Assembly: GCA_045615765.1 (NCBI GenBank)
Contig: JAZLFM010000047.1
Span: 6,370-70,369 of the forward strand
Direction of reading: 5' to 3'
DNA: 64,000 nucleotides
From: Bacteroidales bacterium
GTDB lineage: Bacteria; Bacteroidota; Bacteroidia; Bacteroidales; UBA1715
This document shows positions 35,617-63,503 of the stretch, piece after piece; the stretch's first letter is position 1, and each line of letters starts with the position of its first letter. The notes under the pieces were generated by a model, which was given only the letters and a program-made list of their open reading frames with translations, was not told where the DNA came from and did no database searches. A program made the translations under genes and the position numbers.

Positions 35617-35705
35617 GTTTTGCAATATTACGGCAAAACAAATATATAGAAATTCTGATATTGTTCCAACACGTACAATCCACAATACTATATCCCTTAT
35701 AAAAT

Positions 35706-35735: not shown

Positions 35736-35861
35736 AAATAAATCAAAACTAACAAAAAACTTATAATACACTTTAAAGTGTAAAAAAATAAAATAATATT
35801 TTGTTCTTTCATACAAAAGGTGTATTATTGCATCTCCACAAACACAAAAGCCATAATAACA

Positions 35862-36209
35862 ATGAAAGAGATCACGATAGATGATGTCAAGAAATTCTTG
35901 AATAGTATGAATGTCAAAATTGATATATACGGGATGGTCTTTGCTGAACGCCAACGATGTCAAGAAACCATGCGAATGCTTGGTATTAACGAGGTTGTTG
36001 CAAAAAGTATCATAAAGACTTTGGATGCAACAGATTTCTCAAAGTATTTTGACGACACCACACAATGGGGAAGCGACCTTTGGGCATTTGGCAAGGACAT
36101 AAACGGAGAAGAGATCTATATCAAAATCGGTTTAGGCTTGCCTAACAGGCAGACAGTTTGCGTTTCATTTCATAAAGCAGATTTTCCTATTCAATATCCA
36201 TTCAAATGA
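35862..36209 (+). CDS. MqsR-like type II toxin
   Basis: About 115 aa. LDATDFSKY...WGSDLWAF...EIYIKIGL...VCVSFH parallels the MqsR pattern (DFYK...DVY...VYLKI...VSFK). ATGA overlap with the downstream antitoxin-like gene. Confidence 0.6.
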   Translation: MKEITIDDVKKFLNSMNVKIDIYGMVFAERQRCQETMRMLGINEVVAKSIIKTLDATDFSKYFDDTTQWGSDLWAFGKDINGEEIYIKIGLGLPNRQTVCVSFHKADFPIQYPFK

Positions 36210-49039: not shown

Positions 49040-49042
49040 ATA

Positions 49043-50269
49043 CTAAAATTTAAACAAAGGATTATAACTGCCTATTGTACTACCCATATCCCAAATGAAC
49101 ATCTGTCCCTCAAACAAGAACAAACCTTTTGTAACATGATAAGCGAAAACATAAAGCATCATATAAACAACTATCATACGAAAACTTAATCGAGACACTC
49201 GATTTTTCATACATTGCAATACATGTATTTTCTTATACAATAAATAAACAAATAAAATTGGCCACATTGCATAAAATGGCACGACCAAACGACGCAACAG
49301 TTGCACATTCATAAATAACTGTAACCCTACAATTCCATATACAATTAAGTTATACATTGCTATCATTGTCTGTTTCCTTTGCGAATCGGACTCTCTCTGT
49401 ATTGCACAATAAGAAAAGGCTACTAGGGAAATATCAAATATTCCCATAGCTACGCAAGACAAAATACTTTGGGAATAGATTTCATCTACTGCATTCTGTC
49501 CGAACCAACTCAAACTATTTTCTGTATATACGGAAAATGCTGTTCCTGCAAACATACCAACTAAATACTCACTTATAAAATTAGAGATAAAATCTAAAAA
49601 AGATAATTTTGACACAAATGCAAATAAGACATATAAACAACAAGAAACATATGGCGAAAAAGCTTTTTTAGGATATACACAGAAGAAAATAATAATTTGC
49701 AAAACAAAAGCAACTGTATGAAACATTGTCGCAATAGCACTCAAAAAAATAAAAGCACTCCATTTCCTATCCAAACAATAAACAATAGAGACAAGAGAAA
49801 AAGAAAATGCAACATATTGTCTTATAAAATTTTCTGAATAATAAAATTGAGAAACAACTAGCAGTGGCAACAAGTAACATGCATAATTTGGAAGACGCCG
49901 AACAAGAAACAACAAAGCAACAATAAATAAAAAGTCATAAACAACAAATGCACCATAAAATTCAACATGCATTAGTCTCAAGATACCATTAAGATAAGTA
50001 AATAGCAACTCATTTCTTACCTCATATCCTTTATATACATACACATAGACAAGGTAATCGATACCACGTAAATACCGTAAACCTTCTATTAAAGAATAAG
50101 AGAGAACTAAAGGTACACATGATCTCCAATACAATTTCAACGAAAGGTTTGATTTTTCCACTTTTTGTATCTTTTTACCTGTCCAAAAGGAAAGACACAA
50201 TAAATACAAATACAATATGACAAAATCAACCTTTACTCCCGATGCACCTAACTCAAAAATATTATACAT
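49043..50269 (-). CDS. EpsG/Wzy-type polysaccharide polymerase-like membrane protein
   Basis: 408 aa with 10 or more TM helices, located among glycosyltransferases. No enzymatic motif can be verified by eye. Confidence 0.5.
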   Translation of the reverse strand: MYNIFELGASGVKVDFVILYLYLLCLSFWTGKKIQKVEKSNLSLKLYWRSCVPLVLSYSLIEGLRYLRGIDYLVYVYVYKGYEVRNELLFTYLNGILRLMHVEFYGAFVVYDFLFIVALLFLVRRLPNYACYLLPLLVVSQFYYSENFIRQYVAFSFSLVSIVYCLDRKWSAFIFLSAIATMFHTVAFVLQIIIFFCVYPKKAFSPYVSCCLYVLFAFVSKLSFLDFISNFISEYLVGMFAGTAFSVYTENSLSWFGQNAVDEIYSQSILSCVAMGIFDISLVAFSYCAIQRESDSQRKQTMIAMYNLIVYGIVGLQLFMNVQLLRRLVVPFYAMWPILFVYLLYKKIHVLQCMKNRVSRLSFRMIVVYMMLYVFAYHVTKGLFLFEGQMFIWDMGSTIGSYNPLFKF

Positions 50270-50270
50270 A

Positions 50271-51302
50271 CTAACCTACAAAATTTAGCATACAATCTAA
50301 ACTTTTAACAATAATCATATATATACTATTACGATTATATGAACTTCTCCAGTATCTTACATAACGAAACATTTTACATTTTCTAACTTCCTGTCCTATC
50401 TTTTCATACAAATTAGAGTCATAATTTTTAAGTCTTTTATCAAATTCAATCATTTTATTCCTATTGTTTTCTGAGCTAAATCTTAAAAGATATGCAGTAT
50501 AAACAGCTCTTATTCTATGATTAAGCCTAATGTCAAGATAATTAACAGAATCATCAGGAACATTTTCATATAAATTATGCCTTTGCTCCATCATTACATA
50601 CAAACCATCTAACTCCATCCAAAAGTTTTTATCCCACACACAAGGATCTACAGTTTGTCCATCTCTTCCTACAAGATAATTATATACAACACGATTAAAA
50701 TATGTGATTTTTTTACATGTTGACATCGGCAAAAAAAGCCACTCCTGATCTGTATATGAAATCCCTTCTGTTTGTTTATAATTTATTGATCTCAAATTAT
50801 CTGTCAAATAGCAAACACAATGCATCCAAATATTATCCGCAACATTTAAAAACTCTTTCATTGAAACAATATCAAGTGGAGGCAAATCAAACGATATGGT
50901 TGAGAGTATTTTCTTCTTATCTGTCACTTTTACCATATCTGATATAATACAATCGGCTTCAGTGGTCAAGAGGAAAGTCAAGAAAGATTTAAAATTCATT
51001 GTATCAAACCAATCATCAGCATCCAGCACCTTGATATACTTACCAGTAGCTTCCTTTAGACCTCGATTTATACAAGAACCGTAATTCCCATTTTCTTTAT
51101 CAATCACCCTAAATGTATCTGGGTATTTATCTTGATAAACATGAGCAATCTCACTAGATCTATCCTTTGCCCCATCAATAACGACAAGAACTTCAAGGCG
51201 CTTCAGCAACTCTTGATCATTAATTATAAGAGAAGTAAGACATTTATCGAGATACTTCTCCATGTTGTACGTTGGGACAACAATTGTAAGAATCTTTTCC
51301 AT
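50271..51302 (-). CDS. GT2-family glycosyltransferase
   Basis: LTIVVPTYNMEKYL...VLVVIDGAKDRS...LDADDW. Confidence 0.8.
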   Translation of the reverse strand: MEKILTIVVPTYNMEKYLDKCLTSLIINDQELLKRLEVLVVIDGAKDRSSEIAHVYQDKYPDTFRVIDKENGNYGSCINRGLKEATGKYIKVLDADDWFDTMNFKSFLTFLLTTEADCIISDMVKVTDKKKILSTISFDLPPLDIVSMKEFLNVADNIWMHCVCYLTDNLRSINYKQTEGISYTDQEWLFLPMSTCKKITYFNRVVYNYLVGRDGQTVDPCVWDKNFWMELDGLYVMMEQRHNLYENVPDDSVNYLDIRLNHRIRAVYTAYLLRFSSENNRNKMIEFDKRLKNYDSNLYEKIGQEVRKCKMFRYVRYWRSSYNRNSIYMIIVKSLDCMLNFVG

Positions 51303-51305
51303 TAA

Positions 51306-52460
51306 TTATATATTCTCAAGTTTTAGTACCTGTTCAATCACCGGTGCCATGTCATAATACTTATACTGCCCCAAACGACCTCCGAAGATTACACCGTCTT
51401 CCTTCTCTGCCAATTTACGATACTCTTCAGCCAATGCATTGTTACGATCATCATTCACAGGATAGTATGGCTCCATACCATCCTTATACTCTGTAGAATA
51501 TTCTTCAGAAACTACAGTCTTTGGACAATCATAAACTTCCTGACCGAACATTTCAAAGTGTTTATGCTCTATCACGCGAGTATATGGTTCATTATGCGAT
51601 GTGTAGTTTACTACAGCATTACCCTGATAATTTGGTGTATCCTCCACACGAGTCTTGAACGACACAGTACGCCAATCCAGCTTTCCAAGTGAATACCCGA
51701 AGTACTCATCTACAGCACCTGTATAAACAAGTTTATCAGCATACTTATGCCAGTTATCTTTTAAAGAACACGAATCGCTCGAATCTAATGTATCCTTAAA
51801 AAAATCGAAATTTACTTTTGTTTCGACTCCTTCTAAAAGTCCATCTATAAGTTTGTTATAACCACCAACAGGAATGCCCTGGTACTTATCGTTGAAGTAG
51901 TTGTTATCAAAGATCATACGTACAGGCAGACGTTTGATGATGAATGCCGGCAGTTCCTTGCAATCACGCCCCCACTGCTTTTCGGTGTATTCCTTAATCA
52001 ACTTCTGGAAGATGTCCTTACCCACAAGAGTCAATGCCTGTTCCTCCAGATTCTGAGGTTCACGACCACCAAGTGCAGCTACAGCCTCTGCCTTCTGCTC
52101 ATCAATGCGAACTTGTGCCTGCACTGGTGTATGAACATCTGGCCACATCTTATTGAACGTGTTCATATTGAACGGCAAGTTATACAACTCGCCCTTGTAG
52201 TTTGCCACTGGACAATTGGTGTAACGATTAAACTCCACAATTGAGTTTACGAAATTCCACACTTCCTTATTAGATGTATGAAAAATATGGGCACCATACT
52301 TGTGCACATTAATACCCTCCATCTCCTGACAGTAAATATTGCCGCCAAGTTGTGGTCGCTTGTCTATCACCAAACATTTTTTTCCTGTTTGCTTCGCTTT
52401 ATATGCGAATGTTGCTCCGAATAATCCAGAACCAACTATTAGATAATCGTATCTATCCAT
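51306..52460 (-). CDS. glf: UDP-galactopyranose mutase
   Basis: YDYLIVGSGLFGATFA (FAD GxGxxG), GGNIY, HKYGAHIFHT, YYPVND, GRLGQYKYYDM. The ATG at 52460 is preferred over the TTG at 52472. Confidence 0.9.
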   Translation of the reverse strand: MDRYDYLIVGSGLFGATFAYKAKQTGKKCLVIDKRPQLGGNIYCQEMEGINVHKYGAHIFHTSNKEVWNFVNSIVEFNRYTNCPVANYKGELYNLPFNMNTFNKMWPDVHTPVQAQVRIDEQKAEAVAALGGREPQNLEEQALTLVGKDIFQKLIKEYTEKQWGRDCKELPAFIIKRLPVRMIFDNNYFNDKYQGIPVGGYNKLIDGLLEGVETKVNFDFFKDTLDSSDSCSLKDNWHKYADKLVYTGAVDEYFGYSLGKLDWRTVSFKTRVEDTPNYQGNAVVNYTSHNEPYTRVIEHKHFEMFGQEVYDCPKTVVSEEYSTEYKDGMEPYYPVNDDRNNALAEEYRKLAEKEDGVIFGGRLGQYKYYDMAPVIEQVLKLENI

Positions 52461-52502
52461 AAATAAACTCAATTTTATAGCTTACTAATAAAGTTTCTAA
52501 TC

Positions 52503-54692
52503 TTATATTTCTATATGCCCGATTTCTTTCAATTGGCTTTCTGAACGTTCCCGTCTGTCCACATCCAGTCGTACAAATTTAAAATCTTTCTTGACAGGAG
52601 CACAAAAACGAATCTCGCGCATTATTGCCAATCCATAATACTCACCCATATCCTTGAGATTAAGAATGTTTGAATATATTTTATTGACAGGGTCTATGAG
52701 TTTGTATTCAGGATTATCACATTCATACTCCTTTACTTCACATCTTGGCAGTTTATCCACCTTCATGATAATCATGAAATCCTCATGAGATGGGACGTGA
52801 TAGATACTCATCCCATTATAGGAATACCCAAAGATTGTCTTCACCATCGGGGCTTCGCCACCGTATAGATCGTCAAACGTATTAAGATGGAATGAAGTCA
52901 CCACAGCATAAGTATCATCCAATCCTAATCGGGCAAAAGTATCCTTAATTTCACAAAAATTAATCTTAAAACTTGCAGTAGCAGGAGCCAACCACCATTG
53001 TGCATTATAGTTCATCCATATATCGTGCTGTATCTCGTTTAAGTACAAATCAGGTGTCATACACACCCAATCCGTTCCTGCTTCGAAGTACTTCTTTTCA
53101 TGCTCGTAACTTGCCTGAAAGCACTTAGCCTCTTGATGTATCAGCGTTGACGCATAACGCTCACTCATAGGTGGAAGTTGAAGAGGATAGTTTCCAACAG
53201 TCTCGCGCATTTCTGCTATGAATCGTTGTACCTTCTCTGCATCTACAGCTGATGGTTGAGCACATGTGCGATTTAAGCGCGTCACTACTGCGATACCCAT
53301 CTCGGTAAGATAATACTTTTGTTTCGGACTTTTGGGTTTATCAGGCAAAGTACGAGCAACAAGCCCCTTTTCGAGTGCAGGGGTGAGGATATCTGCTCGA
53401 AAATACTCTCTTTGACTTAAGCCCATCATATGCATAATATCTTTGGCAAGCAACTGTTCTGTTTTGATGACTTTCAGCATATTTAGCACTTGCTCGGTAA
53501 CTTGCTCGGTAACTTGCTCGGTAACTTGCTCGGTAACTTGCTCGGTAACTTGCTCACTTACCCTAAAAAGGGTAGTCATAAACTGGCTGTTTGTTGATTT
53601 GAACACAGGTTTGAACTTATCAACATATCCTTTTAGCTCTTTTGTAGCAAGGTAGATTTTCTTCAGTCCCGACCCCCGTTTTTCCATATAGTCAAGTTGT
53701 GCCATCACATCAGCCAGAATAGGGTTACGTCTTTCGGAAGAGACATCTTTTATGTCCATATCCTGAATCATTCCACCATTGTACATACCACCAGGAGAAG
53801 TGACAGTCAAACGATCATCATAGATATCAAGATGTACTTCTCCACCCATAACTGTATAGTCGCGATGTATAAAATGGTTTACCAACACTTCAAGTACGGC
53901 ACGCTCTGCATATTCTGTCTTATACTTCTTGCCATTAGGCTGCTTTTCCCACCCTTTACGAGTGTTTGACTTGACAAAATTAACAGCTTCGCGCAAAAGC
54001 ATCAAGATATTGCCTTTGAACTCAGCATCGTTGATAGCATCACCTTTCTCTACACCATCCCATCTCGTACAATAAAGTCTTGATTGCGGTAACACAATAT
54101 TGTCAGAGAACAAAACACCTGCATTGGAAAGCAAACCTCTTTCTGTGACAAGTCCAAACGATTTTAGATACTTCTCGTCAAATTCCTGACCAATGCGTTC
54201 ATGAAAAGTAGAAGCCAAAATGCTGAACGAAGATTTCTCTCTAAGAATGTCAGTTATCAGCGAGTCGTAAGTCTGATTCGACCCCTTCAGCACCAGTCTC
54301 ACCATCCGTTCGGCAGATGCCTGCACACTCTCGTCACCCATACGGACAAACGCTATTCTCTGACCATCACCCACGTAGTAATAGGGAGTGTACTTACCTG
54401 AGTGAATCTTCAGCTCCAGCACCCTCACATCACCATCCTTATGAGGAATAGCCTCCACATCTGGGAGTGGATCCATTCGTTCCTTGATGGCTGTACTTAT
54501 CTTTTCAGTCACCATCTGCACATCATCAAGACCCTGCACGGAGCCATCATTATCCACACCGAAGAACAGCGAGCCACCCTCGCCATTGGCAAAAGCACTC
54601 ACACTCTTCAGCCAACTCTTAGGTTTCTTTTCCTCCAGCATCAGCTTGAAGTCATACGCAGTACATTCTGATATAAGATCCTCGATATTCAT
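52503..54692 (-). CDS. AlbA_2 (Schlafen-like divergent AAA) + HATPase_c_4 + wHTH protein with an extra C-terminal domain of about 290 aa and unknown function
   Basis: The N-terminus has WLKSVSAFANGEGGSLFFGVDNDG (AlbA_2). The middle has LVNHFIHRDY...LDIYDDRLTVTSPGG (HATPase_c_4). This is followed by a VTEQ x5 linker, a wHTH (PDKPKSPKQKYYLTEMG), and then unassigned sequence to residue 729. Confidence 0.6.
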   Translation of the reverse strand: MNIEDLISECTAYDFKLMLEEKKPKSWLKSVSAFANGEGGSLFFGVDNDGSVQGLDDVQMVTEKISTAIKERMDPLPDVEAIPHKDGDVRVLELKIHSGKYTPYYYVGDGQRIAFVRMGDESVQASAERMVRLVLKGSNQTYDSLITDILREKSSFSILASTFHERIGQEFDEKYLKSFGLVTERGLLSNAGVLFSDNIVLPQSRLYCTRWDGVEKGDAINDAEFKGNILMLLREAVNFVKSNTRKGWEKQPNGKKYKTEYAERAVLEVLVNHFIHRDYTVMGGEVHLDIYDDRLTVTSPGGMYNGGMIQDMDIKDVSSERRNPILADVMAQLDYMEKRGSGLKKIYLATKELKGYVDKFKPVFKSTNSQFMTTLFRVSEQVTEQVTEQVTEQVTEQVTEQVLNMLKVIKTEQLLAKDIMHMMGLSQREYFRADILTPALEKGLVARTLPDKPKSPKQKYYLTEMGIAVVTRLNRTCAQPSAVDAEKVQRFIAEMRETVGNYPLQLPPMSERYASTLIHQEAKCFQASYEHEKKYFEAGTDWVCMTPDLYLNEIQHDIWMNYNAQWWLAPATASFKINFCEIKDTFARLGLDDTYAVVTSFHLNTFDDLYGGEAPMVKTIFGYSYNGMSIYHVPSHEDFMIIMKVDKLPRCEVKEYECDNPEYKLIDPVNKIYSNILNLKDMGEYYGLAIMREIRFCAPVKKDFKFVRLDVDRRERSESQLKEIGHIEI
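53488..53557. repeat. perfect 12-nt tandem repeat (acttgctcggta x5 plus a partial unit) encoding (VTEQ)n
   Basis: Read directly from the sequence. It is in frame within the 729-aa ORF. Confidence 0.95.
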
Positions 54693-54971
54693 TTGGATAA
54701 ATTTATGTTTGAGGGGTTCTGTACTATAGTAAAAATTTTAAAACGCAGAGTAACATTTTTCCTTCATCAAGAAAACCAATCACTTTAACATTACATTTAG
54801 CACTTTCAAGCTGCACATCGTGCCATTTTTAGTATCAAATCGGTAGTATGCTAATAGTTTTGAAGCTACTTTAACCAGCTTAGTCCATAAACCTTCATCC
54901 GATCTTCGGTCTCCTTCTCTACTATCTCACCTATGACGTTTTGTTGTATTGGATTCATATATATATATGAT

Positions 54972-56036
54972 TTATTCTTTAGTTTCTTTTAATTCACGCC
55001 CAGAGAATGTCCCATAGCTTTTGCCTGAGACTTCTCCTTTTTTATAGTAATCACATAAAGCCTTTATCATCGTTTCAAAATCTTTTCGTTCCTTTATCTT
55101 TATATGACCATCCGCACCGACTGTTATATTATCACCATAACGCTTACAAACAGTCTTCATTTTCTTGATTCGATTAGCATCAAGGTTCGCAAGACCTCCA
55201 GTTTGGTGTAATTTGACAAGTTTCTTGTGTAGTGTGGTATTGGTCTTCAGTTCTTCATCCATAATATCCAAGCCATCAATCATGCCAGTAGATTTCATAT
55301 CATCAACTACTTCTTCAGCTTTTGCATGATATTCTTCTTGAAGTCCGACAATCTGCTCGAATGGAACTTTCTTCAGCACGTAGAATGTATCATCACAGTA
55401 GAGACAGTCTATCTGCTTGTCAAGTGTGACAGCCTCACCTTTCATCAAAGTAAGCTTCTTTGACTTCGAATTGAATATAGTTCGAACTTGACGTATTATC
55501 AGATTCTTGTCTGGATCTTTATTCTCATCAATAGCTATCTTGCTAACCATAATCTTTCTGAATGTGTAGATCCAACTCGAACTTTCAACATCTAAGAATC
55601 CGATGCAATATGCCCACAATTCCTCACTATCAGATATAATACCATCTATGCTTTCGACTTTGGGAAGTTCCTTTCCGAGTTGGTTTATGACAACATCTGA
55701 GAATGAGGATGTTTCCGCTTTCAACTTGTAAGAAAACAAATGGTCTGTGTCATCAGAGATTGGGTCATAGTCAATCAACGAATAATCTTTGGACAGTGTA
55801 CGTTCCAGTTCTTTTATAGAAAGGTCATACAGATACTGTCGAATTTCGTCGTCAACATCAATCTGATAAACCTTGAACAAATACTTATCAAGGGTCTTAT
55901 CACGCTTACCTACACCATCACGTAAGATGCGAGTAATGAAGTGAAGCTTCACATCCTCTTCGTTAGTCGACTTTATTGTGCCCAGAACCTCGTCCAATTT
56001 TGAAGGTTCCTTAATCTTTTCTTCTTTCTTTGCCAT
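54972..56036 (-). CDS. kwaB: KwaB-like (DUF4868) protein, putative Kiwa component
   Basis: 354-aa soluble protein immediately downstream of, and overlapping (26 nt), a 4-TM protein. Size, order and general sequence character fit Kiwa. The DUF4868 match is not verifiable by eye. Confidence 0.5.
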   Translation of the reverse strand: MAKKEEKIKEPSKLDEVLGTIKSTNEEDVKLHFITRILRDGVGKRDKTLDKYLFKVYQIDVDDEIRQYLYDLSIKELERTLSKDYSLIDYDPISDDTDHLFSYKLKAETSSFSDVVINQLGKELPKVESIDGIISDSEELWAYCIGFLDVESSSWIYTFRKIMVSKIAIDENKDPDKNLIIRQVRTIFNSKSKKLTLMKGEAVTLDKQIDCLYCDDTFYVLKKVPFEQIVGLQEEYHAKAEEVVDDMKSTGMIDGLDIMDEELKTNTTLHKKLVKLHQTGGLANLDANRIKKMKTVCKRYGDNITVGADGHIKIKERKDFETMIKALCDYYKKGEVSGKSYGTFSGRELKETKE

Positions 56037-56640
56037 AATATAATTTGAATCCTATTTGGTAAATGTCATAGTTGACATGCTCCTTATAATCCTTTGTATC
56101 AGTTATAATCAATGCGTCATGAGTATCGTTAGATGAGTCACCAACAAGCGAATACTCAATTTCCAACAACGAATATCTCAAACTCAACAAAGGATTTATC
56201 AGGATCATGTTTGAGTTAACGTATATCGTATAGATTAAAGCCATAACAATTACAAATATTCCACACTCGATAGGTGACGAAAAGTCACTTGCAAAGAATG
56301 GCACTATATATGTTGCAATATAACCGATAGCTTCACTATTTCTGTTACTAATCTTCTTGACATCTACTATATTGCCACTTTTAAGGTTCCTGTCAAAGTT
56401 GCTAAGAAGAACAGACATTCCTACCAATCCGATAATAGAGATAATCGCCAGCAAACATGACATCCCGAAATGTATTAGGAAACAAATGACGGCCGCTTTG
56501 TTAACCCCTGCCCAATGCAGAAACTCAATGTTATCACTTAGTTGCTTAACAATAATGATTAGGAATAACGGTATATAGGATGTTACAAAAAGCGAGAACA
56601 AAGCGCCAGTTCTGAGCCCATTATTATTATTCGATTTCAC
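56011..56640 (-). CDS. kwaA: KwaA-like four-TM membrane protein, putative Kiwa component
   Basis: 209 aa with four hydrophobic helices, upstream partner of the KwaB-like gene. Confidence 0.5.
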   Translation of the reverse strand: MKSNNNNGLRTGALFSLFVTSYIPLFLIIIVKQLSDNIEFLHWAGVNKAAVICFLIHFGMSCLLAIISIIGLVGMSVLLSNFDRNLKSGNIVDVKKISNRNSEAIGYIATYIVPFFASDFSSPIECGIFVIVMALIYTIYVNSNMILINPLLSLRYSLLEIEYSLVGDSSNDTHDALIITDTKDYKEHVNYDIYQIGFKLYYGKERRKD

Positions 56641-56651
56641 TTTTTATGTTT

Positions 56652-58298
56652 TTATACATTATATTCTTTCCTTAATGATTGCAAGCTATTCATATTGAGC
56701 AACACGGATGGCTTTGACCTCTTCGTTTCACCATTCTTGTTTGTCCTATAGCTTGTTGTAATCAAAAAGCATTGAGATTTTGCTCTGGTTACACCTACAT
56801 AGTGGAGGTTCAAATCCTGCTCAAAATCATAATATATAGGATTATTGAAATCTCCATTTTCTACTTTCTGATATGGCAACTCCCATTCATTAAGATTCAT
56901 GTGAAAAACAACTTCAAATTCAAGCCCCTTTGATTTGTGAAGAGTCATCAACACTATTTCATTGTCATTTAATGGTCTATATGTATTATAAAACTTCTCA
57001 TTAGCAAGAACGGCCTTTAACTTTGCATTAGATCCAGAATCCTTAGAATGCGGTAGTAACAAGTTTGCTATGGCTACAAAAAGTTCATAAAGCAATATGA
57101 CGTTATCCTCTGGAACTTCCTTAACTTTATGTTCCAACTCCAAGAGTCTCTGCCGTATAGATAATGGCAGATTACCATAATCCACATATTCATCAATCAC
57201 TTGCAAAAAGGGCATTTTAGAATCGAAATAATACGTAAGAAGTTGTGAATACAATCTTGACCGTAAATTCATATCCATTTCAAGTATCGTGGTCTCAAGC
57301 ACGCGGTGTGGAATTGCCAATGATTCATCCAAAATCTGTAATGTTCTTGAATTTCGAACCAAAATAGCAATATCGGATAGATTTCTTACACAATGTTGGT
57401 TACATAGTTCCGGGACACATGCACTGATAACATCTGCAGCTCTTTCTTCCGCACCATCTACGTGCAATAAATATACGCCGTCTTTATCTGTAGGGATGAT
57501 GGTTGAATTCTCATCAAGTAACCTATTTGAATAGTTTATTATAGGTACGGAACAACGATGGTTTTCATTTAAAGCATAGTATGTAAAAGAAGGATCAAGT
57601 TGTAAATTTGTCAAGTACTTGCTTACCTTATGCGAAAATCCAAAGATAGACTGATTGGCATCCCCAACAGCAACTCCAATCATCCCCATGCCTATGAGTT
57701 CACGAAATACGCCGTCCGTATAACAGTCGGCATCCTGATATTCATCTATGAAGATATAGCGATAACGCGCGGACAGATAACGACGACAAGCAATGCTCTG
57801 TCGTATAATATGAAGAGCCAGCAGCTCTAAGGATTCAATAAGAACATAGCCATCGGTATATAATAGTTTCAAATTATCCCAAGCAGCAGTTTCAATACTT
57901 TCATACTCAGGATGAAACTTATCTATCCATTCGAAATCAATCCGCCTATCCTCAATAAGGTCTTGGACAAATAGCGGAACGACTTCTCGTACGGAATTCC
58001 CAAATACGTATTTTCCAAAAGGCAGCACTATCTGCGTCAAACAAAAGCTGTCTATCGTACCAAAGTATGAATAACTTGAATTTGTACCCTTTGCCAATGT
58101 GCGTCTTTTAAGGTTTGCAGAAGCCTTACGAGTATAAGACAATGCAATAACTCCTTGGTAATCGAGCAAGTCCCCACCGCCCAGGACTTTTCTAATCTTC
58201 TCTGACATTATAAATGTTTTTCCACTACCAGGAGAAGCTAACACAACCGTATTGCCAGGATTAGCTATAATGTCGCTCTGTATATCAGTAGGCTCCAT
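56652..58298 (-). CDS. gajB: GajB-like UvrD/PcrA-family (SF1) helicase
   Basis: Walker A ASPGSGKTF, motif II IFIDEYQDA, and C-terminal TLHKSKGLEFE and VGVTRAK. It overlaps gajA by 14 nt. Confidence 0.75.
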   Translation of the reverse strand: MEPTDIQSDIIANPGNTVVLASPGSGKTFIMSEKIRKVLGGGDLLDYQGVIALSYTRKASANLKRRTLAKGTNSSYSYFGTIDSFCLTQIVLPFGKYVFGNSVREVVPLFVQDLIEDRRIDFEWIDKFHPEYESIETAAWDNLKLLYTDGYVLIESLELLALHIIRQSIACRRYLSARYRYIFIDEYQDADCYTDGVFRELIGMGMIGVAVGDANQSIFGFSHKVSKYLTNLQLDPSFTYYALNENHRCSVPIINYSNRLLDENSTIIPTDKDGVYLLHVDGAEERAADVISACVPELCNQHCVRNLSDIAILVRNSRTLQILDESLAIPHRVLETTILEMDMNLRSRLYSQLLTYYFDSKMPFLQVIDEYVDYGNLPLSIRQRLLELEHKVKEVPEDNVILLYELFVAIANLLLPHSKDSGSNAKLKAVLANEKFYNTYRPLNDNEIVLMTLHKSKGLEFEVVFHMNLNEWELPYQKVENGDFNNPIYYDFEQDLNLHYVGVTRAKSQCFLITTSYRTNKNGETKRSKPSVLLNMNSLQSLRKEYNV

Positions 58299-60054
58299 AA
58301 TGACTAACTATATAATCACGTGCAACAATAAGTGGTTTCGCAATATTGTCCACTGCTAATATATTAAGCTTTTCTTTGTTCGCTTTGAGGAATTCATACA
58401 TATTTATGGCTTTTTGATCCTTCATCGCTGCTATAACTTCTGCATCTGAAAGGTCATCCCCATAGAAAGATTGTAAATCCTGTTTCAGAGGTGTATTGAA
58501 TAAATCTGTTTCGAGATCAACTAAAGCCAATAATATATGATACTTTTCCATTAACGTTATTATGCTATTTGCTGCTGTTTTGTTTACAGCGGGTATATTG
58601 GCATCGTCTGAAAAGCCTCTCAGCAGAGGTTTGTTTGTGCCTATTATCGCTTGATCTGCAGGTTCTATATCGTAGTAACTTTCCATAAGATCCAAACACC
58701 GTTCAACACCTGCGTAGCGATACTGGTCTTTCTTTGGTATCTTAAAAATATCATTATCTGTACGCAGTACCCAAGGTATTTCCAAAGACCCAAGGATATT
58801 AGTAAACACCCCGAATTGTACACCTTCCACACTTAGAACTGATATATTAAGCCTATCCAAATCAATTCCTATCTGCTTGGATAGTGTTTTGTAGAACAGC
58901 ATTTCAGATTGTCCTTCTACCAGAACAACGAAATCGGAGAAGAATGCCTCTGCTGGTATAACGCTCATTCTATATCCAAAGTCCCCTATATTGTCAGCTA
59001 TAATTTTTGAACAACCGTCAGAAGCGACAAGAGTTTCATTGCTTTGATTCTTATAAAGTCGAACTATTGAGTTGGGAGAAAATTCGCTTACAATATATGG
59101 AGAATGGCTTGTCAGCATTACCTGCCCCTGTAGAGTTCCACCTAAATATGAAGCCAACTCTCTTTGCTGGTGTGGATGTAAATATGCTTCAGGTTCTTCT
59201 ATGACAATGATTGAAACCTCGTTAGAAGTCTCTGTCTGCTGATTTTGAGATGCCCATAAGGAAAGATAAATCTGATTTATACGTCCCTCACCACCTATAA
59301 TCAAACTCTTTTCTCCGTGCTTTGAGGAAATAGAAACACTTGATATGACTCTGTCAATATCAGTAGAGGAAGTATCAAAAACTATTCTCTGTTCTCTATT
59401 GTGGATTGCCAGTTTGTTCAGCTCTTCATTGATTTTGTCTGTTGCATTCTTCACATACGAAAGTTCTGGAATCTTTGAATCGACGTATTGAAGTTTTTCC
59501 TCTATATCCGCATATAATACATCATCAGCCGCCACCGCATCATCTCCACGGTCCTCCTTTGCTTGATTAAGCAAAAGATTCTTTGATTTGTTGATGTATG
59601 ACCAAAAATCCCGCCTACTGCTTATATACTTCAAATTAAGGAATTTCCGATAATATGGACTTTGTATTTCTGCCAAATCCTCCTCAGTATCACTCTTTCC
59701 ACAGGCAAAAGAATATTCCACTTTTCCTGCATTTCGAGACGCTTTGTACTGCAGTACTAACTTATTATCGTCACTTATGCACCCAGGCATACGCGCAACA
59801 ACACAACCTTCTGTGACATCAACAAGATATGCACGGATTTCTACTTCATTCGTCTCTTCAAACGCATAGAAATCAGAATCAGACAACTCATAATCATAAT
59901 CAGAGAATCCTCGGTCAAGCAACAACCTCAGAGCATATATCAAGTTGGTTTTGCCAACATCATTTGCACCTATAATCAAGGAATGCTTTTCAAAGTTCAC
60001 CGTGGCTTCTTTGAAATTCCTAAAACCTTTAATATAAAGCTTTTGTATTTGCAT
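58285..60054 (-). CDS. gajA: GajA-like OLD-family ATPase/TOPRIM endonuclease
   Basis: The N-terminal IQKLYIKGFRNF...IIGANDVGKTN is an ABC-type P-loop. IIVIEEPEAYLHP is Walker B. VVLVEGQSE is the Toprim glutamate. Confidence 0.75.
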   Translation of the reverse strand: MQIQKLYIKGFRNFKEATVNFEKHSLIIGANDVGKTNLIYALRLLLDRGFSDYDYELSDSDFYAFEETNEVEIRAYLVDVTEGCVVARMPGCISDDNKLVLQYKASRNAGKVEYSFACGKSDTEEDLAEIQSPYYRKFLNLKYISSRRDFWSYINKSKNLLLNQAKEDRGDDAVAADDVLYADIEEKLQYVDSKIPELSYVKNATDKINEELNKLAIHNREQRIVFDTSSTDIDRVISSVSISSKHGEKSLIIGGEGRINQIYLSLWASQNQQTETSNEVSIIVIEEPEAYLHPHQQRELASYLGGTLQGQVMLTSHSPYIVSEFSPNSIVRLYKNQSNETLVASDGCSKIIADNIGDFGYRMSVIPAEAFFSDFVVLVEGQSEMLFYKTLSKQIGIDLDRLNISVLSVEGVQFGVFTNILGSLEIPWVLRTDNDIFKIPKKDQYRYAGVERCLDLMESYYDIEPADQAIIGTNKPLLRGFSDDANIPAVNKTAANSIITLMEKYHILLALVDLETDLFNTPLKQDLQSFYGDDLSDAEVIAAMKDQKAINMYEFLKANKEKLNILAVDNIAKPLIVARDYIVSHYGAY

Positions 60055-60285
60055 AACATTACATTTTTATTATTTGCTCCATCCGGCAGTATCGAGATTT
60101 GTCAAAGAACCACTGGACGAAGGGAGGTAACTGCAAGCATTGCTACTTCACTTGTGCGGATAGCAGTTCTAATCTTATTCCGCAAATTGCAGACTACTAT
60201 ACATCGTTCACAACATTGGTTTAGAACGCTAATAATACTTACTTTTCAACAACACTCATTAATTAAAAACAGTATAACGACCTCT

Positions 60286-60393
60286 CTACAAACATTTCCT
60301 ACCTATAAATTCTTCTAAGCCTGTTTGCTTCGCTTTATATGCGAATGTTGCTCCGAATAATCCAGAACCAACTATTAGATAATCGTATTTCAT
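60286..60393 (-). pseudogene. truncated duplicate of the glf 5' end (35 codons)
   Basis: 60320-60387 is identical over 68 nt to 52384-52451 inside glf. It translates MKYDYLIVGSGLFGATFAYKAKQTG, then diverges to a stop. Confidence 0.85.
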
Positions 60394-60497
60394 TATATCT
60401 TAAATATTTATTCATTACCACAAGATCTTCGGAATAACTATAGCATTTAAGAGAACTATTGATTGGTTTCTATTCATCATATTATAATTTCAATCAT

Positions 60498-61427
60498 TTA
60501 TCCCAAAATCCTTTTCTTTAGCATCCCCGCTTTAACTCGTAACCACCACAAGTGATATGGCAACAAGAAAGATGCATCTTTGGATATAATATTGTACGCA
60601 GTTCGATCGTTCAACATACATGACTCATACAACTTATATTTCAAGAATTCCATTCTCATTTCCTTCAACCGTACCTCGCAAAAGGCATCCTTGCCTATAA
60701 AGAAATTCTGAAGTATACCTATAGAAGCCAAATCAGATTGATATCGTTTTATGTTTATTTTCTCAGAAGCTTGAGACATGTATGAATTAGGATTCATACA
60801 ATTGTAGTGGTAAACTACTTTGTCCAACGTTACTACTTTTTTCGCATAATATGCCAATCTAGGAAGGGTATGATGATCTTCTCCAACATTCACGCCTTCT
60901 ATAGCAGCAATGTTATTATCTGTATACAACGACTTTCTAATTAGTCTTCTCCAAATAACATGGTCAAGCGTCATTTCAATCGTATTATGCACCATTTCCA
61001 TATTAGATGCATATTTGGGTTCAGTCATTATATCTTCTCCATCATTTGAATGTCGTAACGCATTCCCCGAAACAATATCGGCATCAGTCTCCACTTGTTT
61101 CTTAACAAGTAATTCAATTGCATCAGGCTCTAACCAATCATCAGAATCAAGATGGAAAACAAAATCCCCCTTTGCCGCTGCGACTGCGGTATTGCGGGCT
61201 GCCGCAAGTCCTCTGTTGTGATCGTGGTGTATGATTCTAAATTGGATATCACCTTTATATCGCATAATAAAGTCTTCTACAACCATTATACTACCATCAT
61301 TTCCACAATCATCCACAATGATGCACTCTATCGACTCTTTTGCTGTCTGTATAACTACCGACTCAAGGCAACGATTTATATATTCTTTTACATTGTAGAC
61401 CGGTATGAGAATAGAAACTTTATTCAT
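60498..61427 (-). CDS. GT2-family glycosyltransferase
   Basis: VSILIPVYNVKEYI...CIIVDDCGNDGS...LDSDDW. Confidence 0.8.
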   Translation of the reverse strand: MNKVSILIPVYNVKEYINRCLESVVIQTAKESIECIIVDDCGNDGSIMVVEDFIMRYKGDIQFRIIHHDHNRGLAAARNTAVAAAKGDFVFHLDSDDWLEPDAIELLVKKQVETDADIVSGNALRHSNDGEDIMTEPKYASNMEMVHNTIEMTLDHVIWRRLIRKSLYTDNNIAAIEGVNVGEDHHTLPRLAYYAKKVVTLDKVVYHYNCMNPNSYMSQASEKINIKRYQSDLASIGILQNFFIGKDAFCEVRLKEMRMEFLKYKLYESCMLNDRTAYNIISKDASFLLPYHLWWLRVKAGMLKKRILG

Positions 61428-62367
61428 TGGAAATAAATTTTATGCTATCGTAGTCACTCAACCAGGAATCATAAAATGATCGATTCTTTCCATAACTATT
61501 GTCAAAGAAAGTAATATCCTTTCCTAATAGAACTCCAAGAATTGCTGCATGAAGTCGAGTCGTATAAATGTGTGTGTGGGTATTCAATAGTTTAACACCC
61601 TGCTTAATTAAATACGAACGATAATACATCCGAACAAACAAGTCAGCCAATCCCAAACTTTTTAATCGACCGTCTCTTAATTTAAGCATTAGTTTGGTAA
61701 TACAGTCATCTCCATTCTGCATTGTTTGCCAATCAGAAATGGTAATTCCAGGTATCGCCTCAACATCAGATAGAGCCTTTGTCATTTTAAGTTCACTATC
61801 CTTTCTTTTAAGTAGAAGCGGAGAAGATGCAGAATAGTTTTTCTCCCACTTACTCATGTCCATACAGAAGGCCATATCTGGGAGTAAAAGAATTCTATTC
61901 TTAAAATTCTTATCTAAAATTTCAAAAGATGTTGTATCACGCGCACATATAGTCACATTAGAGAATTTTGACATAAAAGCTGCACACCCCAACATATTCT
62001 CTTCTCTTTGGAACCAAACTGTTTGAGGAAAGAAAAGAAAATTGCAACTAGGATATTCTTCCATGACACTCATCTTGAAATCATGATGTTTTGTCCATAA
62101 ATCTCCAAAATTACCACCTCCTTGGAATAACACAAGAGCTCCTTCTTCTATTGTTCGATGAGTATTCCTAAATGTTTCAAGAGAGTACATTCCTTTGCAT
62201 TTATACGGAAGGCATTTCAATAAATCTAATTCTCCTTGCCATATAAGCGTATCACCAATATTAGTATAATACGGAACCTCTAACAAATAATAGTCTCTAT
62301 CGATTAACGGTGCCAAGGCATCTATGAGCATTTTTCTGAGCTGTGATACTTTTTCTTTTGCATTCAT
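61420..62367 (-). CDS. polysaccharide pyruvyl transferase family protein
   Basis: YYTNIGDTLIWQGELDLL...FQGGGNFGDLW...TTRLHAAILG fits the PS_pyruv_trans pattern. Confidence 0.7.
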   Translation of the reverse strand: MNAKEKVSQLRKMLIDALAPLIDRDYYLLEVPYYTNIGDTLIWQGELDLLKCLPYKCKGMYSLETFRNTHRTIEEGALVLFQGGGNFGDLWTKHHDFKMSVMEEYPSCNFLFFPQTVWFQREENMLGCAAFMSKFSNVTICARDTTSFEILDKNFKNRILLLPDMAFCMDMSKWEKNYSASSPLLLKRKDSELKMTKALSDVEAIPGITISDWQTMQNGDDCITKLMLKLRDGRLKSLGLADLFVRMYYRSYLIKQGVKLLNTHTHIYTTRLHAAILGVLLGKDITFFDNSYGKNRSFYDSWLSDYDSIKFISNE

Positions 62368-62369
62368 AT

Positions 62370-63503
62370 TTATTTCTTTCCGAAAATTCTTTTCACGATA
62401 TTTTTCACCTTACCCTTTATAGTTTGCTTCTTTGCTTTTAGTTTCTTCCTCTTTTCTAGAATAGCCATTTCTTTATCAACCACCTGTTTCATCTCGTCAG
62501 AATACTCTTCATTAGAATTCTTCAATCTCTGCTCCATAAATGCTTTCATCCTAGGTTGGAGCCATTCCGTGCCATCCACACACACACGGTTACGGATAGC
62601 CGCATAGGTTGGTGCAACATGCTCTGGAATAGCACCAAATGTAAGGAAGGCATGGGCATTATAACAATGAGGTTGCTGGCAATGATGCCCGATAGCTTTG
62701 AATACAATAGTTTTAGTCACATCATCCATAATATTTTGGCTGAACAGAGAGCAATAGCATTGATGCAAATCTCCTGTACCCATATTATAGAACAATGTCC
62801 AATCTCCTGCATAGCAGAACTCCGTACGCTTCTTTGTGAATACAGAGAACTTGTAATCGAAGAATTCGGATTTAAATGTAGACCACGTCTTCTGATATTC
62901 CTCAGGTGTCATTTTTGTTAAAATCGGTATGACACTCATATCATGTTCGTCACGCCCAACAGTTACATGATTCACAGCTCCAACTTCCTTGACTGCTAAT
63001 TCCTTCATTTCGTCAATATATGGAATGAGTTCATCAGAAGGTGTAGCTTCTAACGTAAAAGAAGCTCCCGCTTCACGCATTTTACGGATGTTATTAAAGA
63101 AACGATCGAACAAGTTTTTTTCTTTCAACTCTAAATAATGATAAGAAAACTTAAAGAACAGACGTTCCAAATATTCTTTAGGGAAAGTTGCTATTTCATC
63201 AAAAGCACGATCAACCGTGGCATTGGTTACAACCATTACATAATGACCTTCTGCCAGTAATGCTTCAATGTACTTCGGCATCTCCGGTGGCAATAACGTC
63301 TCACCTCCACCACAAAAGTTAATCATACAAGTACCTCCGAGACGTTCTTTCGAAAATCCTCTACGGAAAGTATCCACATCATATTTGAACTTGGGTAGAG
63401 GACCTCCAAAGAGACGATTGTGAGTAATGTAACAGTAATGACAACGAAGTGTACACGTTGTTACTGGCACCCAGATATCAATAAATCTTTTAAACTTCTC
63501 CAT
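62370..63503 (-). CDS. radical SAM protein
   Basis: CTLRCHYCY (CxxxCxxC) near the N-terminus, a GGGE motif, and additional C-terminal Cys residues. Confidence 0.75.
   Translation of the reverse strand: MEKFKRFIDIWVPVTTCTLRCHYCYITHNRLFGGPLPKFKYDVDTFRRGFSKERLGGTCMINFCGGGETLLPPEMPKYIEALLAEGHYVMVVTNATVDRAFDEIATFPKEYLERLFFKFSYHYLELKEKNLFDRFFNNIRKMREAGASFTLEATPSDELIPYIDEMKELAVKEVGAVNHVTVGRDEHDMSVIPILTKMTPEEYQKTWSTFKSEFFDYKFSVFTKKRTEFCYAGDWTLFYNMGTGDLHQCYCSLFSQNIMDDVTKTIVFKAIGHHCQQPHCYNAHAFLTFGAIPEHVAPTYAAIRNRVCVDGTEWLQPRMKAFMEQRLKNSNEEYSDEMKQVVDKEMAILEKRKKLKAKKQTIKGKVKNIVKRIFGKK

What the first reader, a model, noticed from the sequence alone, without database searches (positions are those of the whole stretch)
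52384..60393. A 7.9-kb defence island (Gabija + Kiwa-like + Schlafen-like gene) is embedded in the capsule operon, bounded by a perfect 68-bp duplication of the glf 5' end
- 52384-52451, inside functional glf, is identical to 60320-60387, which belongs to a 35-codon glf stub (MKYDYLIVGSG...).
- Everything in between is co-oriented with the capsule genes: gajA, gajB, the kwaA-like and kwaB-like genes, and the 729-aa AlbA_2 protein.
- The island therefore carries its own replacement glf start, as site-specific elements that target a gene end do. No recombinase is present.
- The direct repeats would allow precise loss by homologous recombination.
- Defence genes transcriptionally embedded in a capsule locus could couple phage-receptor variation with immunity.
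Basis: partly seen in the sequence, partly recalled or inferred. Interest (0 to 1): 0.65.

Follow-up and report, generated by a model that had tools for sequence, protein, structure and literature searches.

The report
Defence genes inserted in capsule operon
A 7.9-kb patchwork of anti-phage genes (Gabija, Kiwa and a Schlafen/AlbA_2-domain gene) sits inside a capsule-synthesis operon between two perfect 69-bp copies of the start of the glf gene. It looks like a recombination footprint rather than a self-mobile element, and the same Gabija-Kiwa cassette turns up in polysaccharide loci of other Bacteroidales.

Summary
A perfect 69-bp direct repeat (52384-52452 = 60320-60388) flanks 7,867 bp, and everything is on the minus strand inside a polysaccharide operon. 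PADLOC confirms Gabija and a true Kiwa. The 729-aa AlbA_2/HATPase_c_4/wHTH protein belongs to no named system, although its full-length relatives sit beside defence genes.

The upstream repeat copy is a 35-codon glf stub (MKYDYL...). The downstream copy heads an intact glf (MDRYDYL...).

The insert is not one element but a patchwork:
- The 5.2-kb Gabija-Kiwa cassette occurs at 90-94% identity in at least five other contexts, several inside polysaccharide loci, and never with a glf fragment or the AlbA_2 gene.
- Two further gene 5' remnants mark other junctions.
- The window contains no tyrosine or serine recombinase.

The 5' edge of the repeat falls where glf alleles begin to be homologous. 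Its 3' edge is an abrupt junction.

Best reading (about 0.45): one-sided homologous recombination anchored in glf plus one illegitimate join, which duplicated the 69 bp and kept glf intact. A site-specific element that uses a recombinase encoded elsewhere is not excluded. Recombination between the repeats would restore an intact MK-glf.

The systems are ordinary. The recurrent embedding in capsule loci is moderately interesting.

The parts
60498..63503 (-). Upstream capsule genes: radical SAM (62370-63503), polysaccharide pyruvyl transferase (61420-62367), GT2 glycosyltransferase (60498-61427).
   Evidence: Pfam. 99.3% identical to contig L087 over 62663-60438.
60415..60477 (-). Remnant of an Acyl_transf_3 gene: a 20-codon ORF, MNRNQSIVLLNAIVIPKILW*. 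Identity to L087 drops from 99% to about 70% at 60438.
   Evidence: In L087 the GT2 gene is followed by a full acyltransferase gene starting MNRNQSIDLLKVIAML.
60286..60393 (-). glf stub: a 35-codon ORF. Codons 1-26 are glf (MKYDYL...KQTG), followed by 9 unrelated codons and a stop.
60320..60388 (-). Upstream copy of the 69-bp direct repeat.
60151..60319 (-). Unassigned left-end piece of the insert. It has stops in all frames within 11 codons and no match in any fetched locus.
60055..60150 (-). Conserved leader of the Gabija-Kiwa cassette (CyATCCGCACArGTG ... CTGCCGGATGG, a possible hairpin). This is the left edge of the cassette shared with L002, L091 and L101.
58285..60054 (-). gajA (589 aa; AAA_15 ATPase + OLD-like TOPRIM).
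   Evidence: PADLOC GajA 1.2e-205; Pfam.
56652..58298 (-). gajB (548 aa; UvrD-type SF1 helicase). It overlaps gajA by 14 nt.
   Evidence: PADLOC GajB 1.7e-176; Pfam.
56011..56640 (-). kwaA (209 aa; hydrophobic, about 4 predicted membrane segments by eye).
   Evidence: PADLOC KwaA 4e-65. NCBIfam KwaA 74.8 bits, below the cut-off of 100.
54972..56036 (-). kwaB (354 aa; DUF4868/KwaB).
   Evidence: PADLOC KwaB 8.5e-106. Pfam KwaB 72.4 bits, above the cut-off of 26.3.
54915..54958 (-). First 14 codons of the 112-aa gene that follows kwaB in L002 and L091. Homology stops abruptly at 54915.
52503..54692 (-). 729-aa protein with SLFN_AlbA_2 + HATPase_c_4 + Fic-like_C wHTH domains, a (VTEQ)6 linker and an unknown C-terminal domain of about 270 aa.
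   Evidence: Pfam. No PADLOC system and no NCBIfam match. Full-length relatives (56-58% identity) sit next to OLD+UvrD-like or STAND-type genes.
52574..52606 (-). Match to the Bacteroidetes promoter consensus (TTTG N17-23 TAnnTTTG), about 115 bp upstream of the glf ATG and inside the 3' end of the AlbA_2 gene. Candidate only.
   Evidence: 12 matches in the window against 5.7 expected.
52384..52452 (-). Downstream copy of the 69-bp direct repeat.
51306..52460 (-). Functional glf (UDP-galactopyranose mutase, 384 aa, starts MDRYDYL). The start codon and 5' leader come from the insert side.
   Evidence: TIGR00031 379.9 bits, above the cut-off of 303.75. 95% identical to L100 from 52451 onward.
43345..51302 (-). 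Downstream capsule genes: GT2, EpsG-type polymerase, GT2, GT2, GT1, Acyl_transf_3, a split Acyl_transf_3 and WecG/TagA.
   Evidence: Pfam.

Best explanation
The region is a patchwork defence insertion inside a Bacteroidales-type capsule operon. It was assembled by ordinary recombination, not by a self-mobile element.

The most likely origin of the 69-bp repeat is a one-sided homologous event (homology-facilitated illegitimate recombination):
1. Incoming single-stranded DNA carried [left piece - Gabija-Kiwa - AlbA_2 gene - MDR-glf].
2. It paired with the resident glf from the point where glf alleles become homologous (codon 3, TACGATTAT).
3. Its heterologous far end was joined illegitimately to the resident strand 69 nt inside that paired stretch.

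This leaves a resident 26-codon stub (MK...KQTG), then the insert, then an intact glf. The start codon and leader of that glf come from the donor.

What is shown:
- the repeat and its two kinds of edge;
- the gene identities;
- the mosaic make-up of the insert;
- the independent mobility of the Gabija-Kiwa cassette.

What is inferred:
- the order of events;
- the single-strand intermediate;
- that the donor carried the same glf 5' allele, or was corrected to it.

Functionally, Gabija (an OLD-type nuclease plus a UvrD-type helicase acting on invader DNA) and Kiwa (a membrane sensor, KwaA, plus a DNA-binding effector, KwaB) should act as in the characterised systems. They are probably transcribed with, or from within, the capsule operon. 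The 69-bp repeats allow rare RecA-dependent loss of the whole insert, which would restore MK-glf.
For: 1. The 5' edge of the repeat (52452/60388) coincides with the point where independent glf loci become alignable. L100 (95% identical over glf-GT2-EpsG) and L086 both start matching at 52451, and each has an unrelated upstream sequence. N-termini before YDY vary freely among 120 Glf relatives. That edge is therefore a homology boundary between two glf contexts.

2. The 3' edge (60320/60319) is abrupt, with no residual similarity. That edge is an illegitimate joint.

3. The first ~100 bp of glf is hypervariable: 32 mismatches in 100 nt against L100, compared with 0-5 per 100 nt over most of the rest, apart from a second divergent patch. 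A 69/69 match therefore means both copies derive from one allele and the event is recent, or the copies were corrected to match.

4. The insert is a mosaic with scars:
- The Gabija-Kiwa cassette is 90-94% identical to L002, L091-L099, L101, L102 and L103 between the same left edge and the kwaB stop, or 14 codons beyond it.
- An acyltransferase remnant lies at 60415-60477, where the 99.3%-identical L087 has the whole gene.

5. None of the other cassette contexts has flanking repeats, a glf piece or the AlbA_2 gene.

6. The window contains no tyrosine or serine recombinase.

7. The insert has a higher GC content (0.33-0.45) than the downstream capsule genes (0.27-0.39).

8. The in-silico deletion product is an intact 383-aa Glf.
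Against: - No donor arrangement (AlbA_2 gene or this insert directly upstream of an MDR-glf) was found. AlbA_2 relatives in 80 metagenome loci never neighbour glf, and none of 120 Glf relatives starts with MDR.
- No empty site (GT2 - remnant - MK-glf without the insert) was recovered. The closest relative, L087, diverges before the site, and L100 has a different upstream sequence.
- The model needs the donor and recipient to share a hypervariable 69 bp, or needs mismatch correction.
- That illegitimate joints can fall inside the homologous anchor and so produce a duplication is my inference. I did not find a paper that documents this outcome.
- The contig may come from a metagenome assembly, so the two junctions are not independently verified.
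Confidence: 0.45

Rival explanations
1. It is a site-specific integrative island that has lost its recombinase or uses one encoded elsewhere. Its attP contains 69 bp of the glf 5' end plus a replacement start (ATGGATAG). Integration then splits glf but rebuilds it, and excision is precise.
For: - Perfect direct repeats sit exactly at the ends of the insert, and the rebuilt gene has a different start codon and leader.
- The repeat edge at the start of glf conservation would also be expected if the element once captured a glf 5' end.
- The precise deletion product is an intact gene.
Against: - No tyrosine or serine recombinase lies in the insert or anywhere in the 64 kb.
- The insert is a mosaic with an internal truncated gene.
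- Its Gabija-Kiwa part occurs in at least five other contexts without glf fragments or repeats.
- No second instance of the island or its junctions was found in the genome, metagenome, viral, plasmid or phage collections.
Confidence: 0.17
2. A linear DNA fragment was inserted into a staggered break, or by replication template switching. The 69 bp is then a filled-in target-site duplication, and the in-frame ATG at the insert's right end is fortuitous and kept by selection for a working glf.
For: - Both copies are the same allele, as a true target duplication requires.
- By my estimate, an in-frame start codon before a stop just upstream of a random junction has a chance of roughly 25-50%.
Against: - It does not explain why the duplication starts exactly at the boundary between the variable leader and the conserved glf core.
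- To my knowledge, no bacterial insertion process is known to give target duplications of about 70 bp.
Confidence: 0.12
3. It is an assembly artefact. A de Bruijn-graph assembler threaded a chromosome with an uninterrupted glf and a second molecule or strain through the shared 69-mer.
For: - The repeat is in the length range at which short-read assemblers can mis-thread.
- The window's own contig is a 95.9-kb record of unknown type.
- The near-identical strain L087 has a different gene after the GT2 gene.
Against: - A real molecule must still carry the 69-mer followed by CTTAGAAG and ATGGATAG followed by the 69-mer. A glf 5' fragment therefore really abuts both insert ends.
- A 7.9-kb circle without replication or mobilisation genes is implausible.
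Confidence: 0.1
4. It is an old duplication. The stub is the decayed remnant of an earlier glf copy, and its first 69 bp are kept identical to the functional gene by gene conversion.
For: - After a 22-nt stretch the stub reads GRKCL, where glf reads GKKCL (AAATGTTTG is shared).
- Gene remnants are common in this locus.
Against: - The residual similarity is not significant (p about 0.07).
- Conversion limited to exactly 69 bp with sharp edges is unlikely.
- The relatives found do not share the arrangement.
Confidence: 0.08

Closest known systems
Gabija (GajA/GajB) anti-phage system
   Same: It has a two-gene operon with overlapping ORFs. GajA has an ABC-type ATPase plus an OLD-like TOPRIM domain, and GajB is a UvrD-type SF1 helicase. 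The PADLOC models match full length.
   Different: It is only 64-94% identical to any relative found. It is fused into a conserved cassette with Kiwa and sits inside a capsule operon. Activity is untested.
Kiwa (KwaA/KwaB) anti-phage system
   Same: A small multi-pass membrane protein is followed by a DUF4868/KwaB protein, with overlapping ORFs. PADLOC and Pfam KwaB score above threshold. In the characterised system, KwaA senses membrane perturbation and KwaB binds DNA and is blocked by lambda Gam (PMC11785009).
   Different: It falls below NCBIfam's equivalog cut-offs, so it is a divergent subfamily. It is always linked to Gabija in this lineage.
Integrative islands or prophages that duplicate and replace the end of their target gene (for example e14 and phage 21 in icd; from my own knowledge)
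   Same: The insert is flanked by direct repeats made of target-gene sequence. The target gene stays intact with an element-derived end. Precise excision would restore the original gene.
   Different: Here it is the 5' end, so the insert must also supply the start codon and transcription. There is no recombinase, the content is a mosaic, and no second instance was found.
Homology-facilitated illegitimate recombination, and duplications generated during uptake of DNA
   Same: One end shows homology and the other is an abrupt joint. Foreign DNA is trapped next to a conserved anchor gene. Recombination during DNA uptake is known to create duplications that keep an intact copy of a needed gene next to a disrupted one (PMC3784515, a different mechanism in pneumococcus).
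   Different: A 69-bp duplication of the anchor is not the usual reported outcome, which as I recall is a deletion of recipient DNA. No experimental system exists for this organism.
Bacteroides capsular polysaccharide loci and their role in phage susceptibility
   Same: It is a long co-oriented operon of glycosyltransferases, a polymerase, acyltransferases and sugar-nucleotide enzymes. In B. fragilis, capsule type and defence systems including Gabija jointly determine phage survival (PMC13139388).
   Different: In that work the defence systems are separate loci. Here they are physically inside the operon. The start of this locus (UpxY, possibly an invertible promoter) lies outside the window.

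Membership tests
Gabija | GajA with an N-terminal ABC/AAA ATPase and a C-terminal OLD-type TOPRIM nuclease domain | tested here: met
   PADLOC GajA PDLC00066, 1.2e-205, covering residues 1-579 against profile positions 1-560 of 567. Pfam AAA_15, AAA_21 and OLD-like_TOPRIM.
Gabija | An adjacent GajB that is a UvrD-like SF1 helicase | tested here: met
   PADLOC GajB PDLC00123, 1.7e-176, full length. Pfam UvrD-helicase + UvrD_C. The ORFs overlap by 14 nt.
Gabija | Protection against phage | not testable with these tools
   This needs expression and plaque assays.
Kiwa | KwaA, a small multi-pass membrane protein | tested here: met
   PADLOC KwaA PDLC00212, 4e-65, full length. Hydrophobic segments are visible in the sequence. 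NCBIfam KwaA scores 74.8 bits, below the cut-off of 100.
Kiwa | An adjacent KwaB with a DUF4868 domain | tested here: met
   PADLOC KwaB PDLC00223, 8.5e-106. Pfam PF16162 KwaB 72.4 bits, cut-off 26.3. NCBIfam scores 42.8 bits, below the cut-off of 200.
Site-specific integrative element (genomic island or prophage type) | Encodes a tyrosine or serine recombinase (or a DDE transposase) at one end | tested here: not met
   Pfam scans of the ORFs of 120 aa or more that were checked in the insert and across the window found none. The only transposase is an IS200 Y1 transposase at 8651-9112.
Site-specific integrative element (genomic island or prophage type) | Direct repeats (attL/attR) at both ends, made of target sequence | tested here: met
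   69-bp perfect repeat.
Site-specific integrative element (genomic island or prophage type) | The same element with the same ends at the same target in other genomes, alongside empty sites | tested here: not met
   No second instance was found in the collections searched. The Gabija-Kiwa part occurs in other contexts without these ends.
Site-specific integrative element (genomic island or prophage type) | Excision to a circular form | not testable with these tools
   This needs raw reads or PCR.
Known Schlafen/AlbA_2-containing defence systems (for example pAgo-associated effectors) | A match to a defined system model together with its partner genes | tested here: not met
   PADLOC gives only partial domain hits to pAgo/Aga proteins (1e-12 to 1e-16), and no partner is present. 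NCBIfam gives nothing. Neighbourhood evidence only.
UDP-galactopyranose mutase (Glf) | A full-length match above the curated equivalog cut-off | tested here: met
   TIGR00031 379.9 bits against a cut-off of 303.75, residues 4-380. Pfam GLF + NAD_binding_8.

The most novel reading that the evidence does not exclude
Capsule operons of rumen and gut Bacteroidales may be preferred landing and expression sites for defence cassettes. Under this reading, the Gabija-Kiwa cassette (and Gabija alone) repeatedly enters them co-directionally, using conserved capsule genes such as glf as recombination anchors. Immunity would then be transcribed with, and possibly phase-varied together with, a particular capsule type, and could be shed precisely through the flanking repeat. 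The fixed Gabija-Kiwa pairing might also be functional. Kiwa is blocked by a phage Gam protein (PMC11785009), while Gabija is licensed by phage end-binding and anti-RecBCD proteins (PMC12407980).
Probability: 0.15. Interest if true: 0.7.

Novelty: new member of a known kind. Interest (0 to 1): 0.4.

Why it matters
- **A footprint of acquisition.** The arrangement shows how a defence cassette can enter the middle of an essential-for-capsule operon without destroying it. The target gene's 5' end is duplicated and the intact copy receives a new start. The same repeat offers a built-in route to lose the cassette.
- **Possible coupling of capsule and immunity.** If the recurrent placement of this Gabija-Kiwa cassette in polysaccharide loci is more than hotspot coincidence, it would physically link receptor-masking capsules with intracellular immunity in Bacteroidales. 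Capsule type is already known to decide phage susceptibility in that group.
- **Otherwise ordinary.** The genes themselves are ordinary members of known defence families.

Tried and rejected
- **Residual glf similarity beyond the 69 bp.** None was significant. This rejects a longer decayed glf pseudogene.
- **A chimeric functional glf whose first 69 bp were pasted in from the stub.** Rejected. The divergent 5' patch relative to L100 extends about 30 bp past the end of the repeat.
- **glf stubs or flanking repeats next to Gabija in other loci.** None found.
- **Exact-protein look-ups of the window's GT2, Glf, stub and AlbA_2 protein.** None is on record.
- **Genome scan with GajA.** It returned only a 64%-identical Fibrobacter locus.
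- **Plasmid, phage and viral collections.** No match to the island or to the 69-mer. One unrelated AlbA_2 N-terminal hit turned up.
- **Rfam on 50-64 kb.** Nothing.
- **The hairpin in the Gabija leader.** It is weak (z-scores -0.5 to -1.9).
- **Sigma-70 and terminator scans.** Not informative for this phylum.
- **Single-sequence AlphaFold of the AlbA_2 C-terminal domain.** It failed (pLDDT 34), so no fold search was run. There is no PDB sequence match either.
- **The 31-nt intergenic repeat of L101.** Absent from the window.
- **Literature searches.** No report of defence systems embedded in capsule loci was found.

Full report
**Observation**

All relevant genes are on the minus strand. A perfect 69-nt direct repeat (52384-52452 = 60320-60388) is the only long repeat of this region in the window.

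- The upstream copy lies in a 35-codon ORF, 60286-60393. It reads MKYDYLIVGSGLFGATFAYKAKQTG, then nine unrelated codons and a stop.
- The downstream copy heads a full-length glf, 51306-52460, which starts MDRYDYL. This gene passes the curated UDP-galactopyranose mutase model: TIGR00031, 379.9 bits against a cut-off of 303.75.

Nothing beyond the 69 nt is similar between the two places. The alignment score was 54 against 49.6 +/- 6.3 for shuffles. A shared AAATGTTTG (GRKCL against GKKCL) just after each copy has p about 0.07.

**Gene content**

PADLOC models match across their full length:

| Gene | Coordinates | E-value |
|---|---|---|
| gajA | 58285-60054 | 1.2e-205 |
| gajB | 56652-58298 | 1.7e-176 |
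| kwaA | 56011-56640 | 4e-65 |
| kwaB | 54972-56036 | 8.5e-106 |

Pfam agrees. These are Gabija and a true Kiwa, although a divergent one by NCBIfam cut-offs.

The 729-aa protein (52503-54692) has SLFN_AlbA_2, HATPase_c_4 and a Fic-like_C winged helix, then a (VTEQ)6 linker and an unassigned C-terminal domain of about 270 aa. It fits no PADLOC system or NCBIfam family. Its C-terminal domain has no PDB sequence match, and a single-sequence structure model was unusable (pLDDT 34).

Its full-length relatives are 56-58% identical and come mostly from metagenome records that look like rumen samples. They sit directly beside an OLD-family ATPase-TOPRIM plus UvrD-like pair (L008, L010) or beside STAND-type NTPases (L011). 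The protein is therefore defence-associated by neighbourhood only.

**Setting**

- Upstream lie a radical SAM enzyme, a pyruvyl transferase and a GT2 gene.
- Downstream lie glf, GT2, an EpsG-type polymerase, three more glycosyltransferases, acyltransferases and WecG.
- All are co-oriented with short gaps, so the insert is inside a polysaccharide operon.
- The start of the operon lies beyond the window end.
- No tyrosine or serine recombinase is encoded anywhere in the 64 kb. The only transposase is an IS200 Y1 transposase at 8651-9112.

**The insert is a patchwork**

The closest relative of the upstream flank is contig L087. It is 99.3% identical from 62663 to 60438. After the GT2 gene it continues into a complete Acyl_transf_3 gene. 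The window keeps only a 20-codon remnant of such a gene (60415-60477), with identity dropping to about 70% at 60438.

The stretch from about 60150 to 54915 is a Gabija-Kiwa cassette. It recurs at 90-94% nucleotide identity, with the same left edge (a conserved leader, CyATCCGCACArGTG ... CTGCCGGATGG), in the following contexts:

- **L002:** QueC and PfkB upstream.
- **L091-L099:** one context, indexed in 42 blocks of the collection.
- **L101:** after GT1, Acyl_transf_3, GT4, PIN_12 and a ParA-like gene.
- **L102:** after AbiC-like and PD-T7-3-like genes.
- **L103:** a short contig.

In L002 and L091 a 112-aa gene follows kwaB. The window keeps its first 14 codons (54958-54915) and then breaks off. 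The AlbA_2 block that follows, and the roughly 155 bp at the left end (60151-60319), match nothing else fetched.

The 7.9 kb therefore contains at least three unrelated pieces. Including the acyltransferase remnant just upstream of the stub, the region carries three truncated gene starts. None of the other cassette contexts has flanking repeats, a glf fragment or the AlbA_2 gene.

**What the two edges of the repeat say**

Contig L100 is 95% identical to the window across glf-GT2-EpsG. Its match begins at 52451, the 5' edge of the repeat, and its upstream sequence is unrelated to either window context. L086 behaves the same way. Among 120 Glf relatives, the residues before YDY vary freely. The 5' edge is therefore the point where different glf loci begin to be homologous. 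It is a homology boundary between two glf contexts (an MK leader and an MDR leader).

The 3' edge of the stub is an abrupt, illegitimate joint.

The first ~100 nt of glf are hypervariable: 32 differences from L100, against 0-5 per 100 nt over most of the rest of the block, apart from a second divergent patch. Hence 69/69 identity means both copies come from one allele, recently or after correction. The divergent patch extends past the end of the repeat, so the functional gene is not a chimera made at that edge.

**Mechanism**

The combination of one homology edge, one illegitimate edge, a donor-derived leader on the intact copy and no recombinase fits a one-sided homologous event best. Incoming DNA that carried the defence genes upstream of a glf paired with the resident glf. 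Its heterologous end was then joined to the resident strand 69 nt inside the paired stretch. This step is inferred, not shown. I could not find the predicted donor arrangement or an empty site.

A site-specific island that uses a recombinase encoded elsewhere remains possible, but nothing beyond the repeat itself supports it. Also not excluded are a staggered-break duplication, mis-threading by an assembler, and an old duplication homogenised by conversion.

Whatever the origin, recombination between the repeats would give an intact 383-aa MK-Glf. The insert can therefore be lost precisely.

**Recurrent capsule-locus context**

- **L091-L099:** the same cassette lies between capsule-type genes (Bac_transf, ATP-grasp and Lactamase_B on one side; NTP_transf_5, PIG-L and DUF6016 on the other), co-oriented.
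- **L101:** it follows glycosyltransferases.
- **L003 and L005:** a 77%-identical Gabija lies between PIG-L and an epimerase in L003, and near Glycos_transf_4 and DegT in L005.
- **L001:** the 64% Fibrobacter homologue has GT2 genes upstream.
- **The window itself:** an Iet system (IetA 40194-41168, IetS 37783-39984) lies just past the 3' end of the capsule locus.

This is suggestive of a real association, but it has not been tested statistically. L003 and L091 share a locus type and may not be independent. I found no paper that describes defence systems inside capsule loci. Work in B. fragilis shows that capsule type and separate defence loci, including Gabija, jointly set phage survival (PMC13139388).

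**Expected function**

By homology, Gabija should attack invader DNA. Recent work links its licensing to phage end-binding and anti-RecBCD proteins (PMC12407980). Kiwa should sense membrane perturbation through KwaA and act on DNA through KwaB, which lambda Gam blocks (PMC11785009).

Transcription of glf and the nine downstream capsule genes now has to come either from read-through across 7.9 kb or from a start inside the insert. A match to the Bacteroidetes promoter consensus lies at 52574-52606. It is only a candidate.

**Verdict**

- The defence assignments are confirmed for Gabija and Kiwa.
- The reading of a site-specific element with its own replacement start is not supported as stated.
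- The most likely explanation is a recombination footprint in a mosaic, recombination-prone capsule locus.
- The systems are ordinary members of known families.
- The repeated capsule-locus context of the Gabija-Kiwa cassette, and the gene-preserving duplication, are the points worth following up.

Noticed in passing
window 37783-41168 (-): A complete Iet defence pair sits about 2 kb past the last capsule gene, on the same strand: IetA (40194-41168, PADLOC 2.4e-66) and the IetS subtilase (37783-39984, 9.2e-37). It is separated from the capsule locus by an opposite-strand 526-aa ORF with no family match.
   Followed up: partly
window 9265-10386 (-), 7869-8390 (+), 8651-9112 (+): A PADLOC candidate system, PDC-S01 (AAA_14 + DUF4143, 3.3e-161), an AbiGi-like protein and an IS200-type Y1 transposase lie together. 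A Caudovirus prohead protease-like ORF is at 4719-5687.
   Followed up: partly
window 34563-37183: A SocA/Panacea-domain antitoxin-like gene (36206-37183, +) lies near a small protein with a weak CdiA_C toxin-domain hit (35134-35616, -).
   Followed up: no
window 44145-45166 (-): An Acyl_transf_3 gene in the capsule locus is split into two overlapping ORFs (160 aa and 218 aa). This is probably a frameshifted pseudogene.
   Followed up: no
window 53476-53567: A perfect 12-nt tandem repeat (ACTTGCTCGGTA on the + strand, about 6 copies) encodes (VTEQ)6 in the linker of the AlbA_2 protein. Relatives have imperfect QVxTK-type repeats at the same place. The repeat is in frame, so it would change linker length rather than switch the gene off.
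   Followed up: partly
window 60055-60150 (-); L002 3085-3217; L091 8165-8244; L101 about 5860-5980: A conserved leader lies upstream of gajA, with arms CCATCCGC ... GCCGGATGG around an insert of variable length. It folds as a hairpin in L002 and L091 (z about -1.9) but less clearly in the window, where the 5' arm has a C-to-T change. There is no Rfam match.
   Followed up: partly
L008 12215-14796 and L010 4217-6798: The closest full-length relatives of the 729-aa AlbA_2 protein are followed, with no gap, by an OLD-family ATPase-TOPRIM protein (522 aa) and a short UvrD-like helicase (342 aa). This is a Gabija-like pair, which hints at a functional link between this protein family and OLD/UvrD systems.
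   Followed up: partly
L101 2240-2270, 2442-2472, 3661-3691: A 31-nt element (AAAAAGCAGGCAAAAGGCGCGATGCTG core) is repeated in the intergenic regions flanking a PIN_12 gene, between the glycosyltransferases and the Gabija-Kiwa cassette. It is absent from the window.
   Followed up: partly
window 51671-51870 and 52355-52451: Relative to L100, glf shows two sharply divergent patches (25-37% differences) within an otherwise 95-100% identical block. glf alleles are therefore themselves recombination mosaics.
   Followed up: partly
window 60415-60477, 60286-60393, 54915-54958: All three gene remnants in this region are 5' ends (about 20, 26 and 14 codons), each sitting just after an intact gene. 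If breakpoints were random along genes of about 1 kb, this would be unlikely. I have no explanation for it.
   Followed up: no
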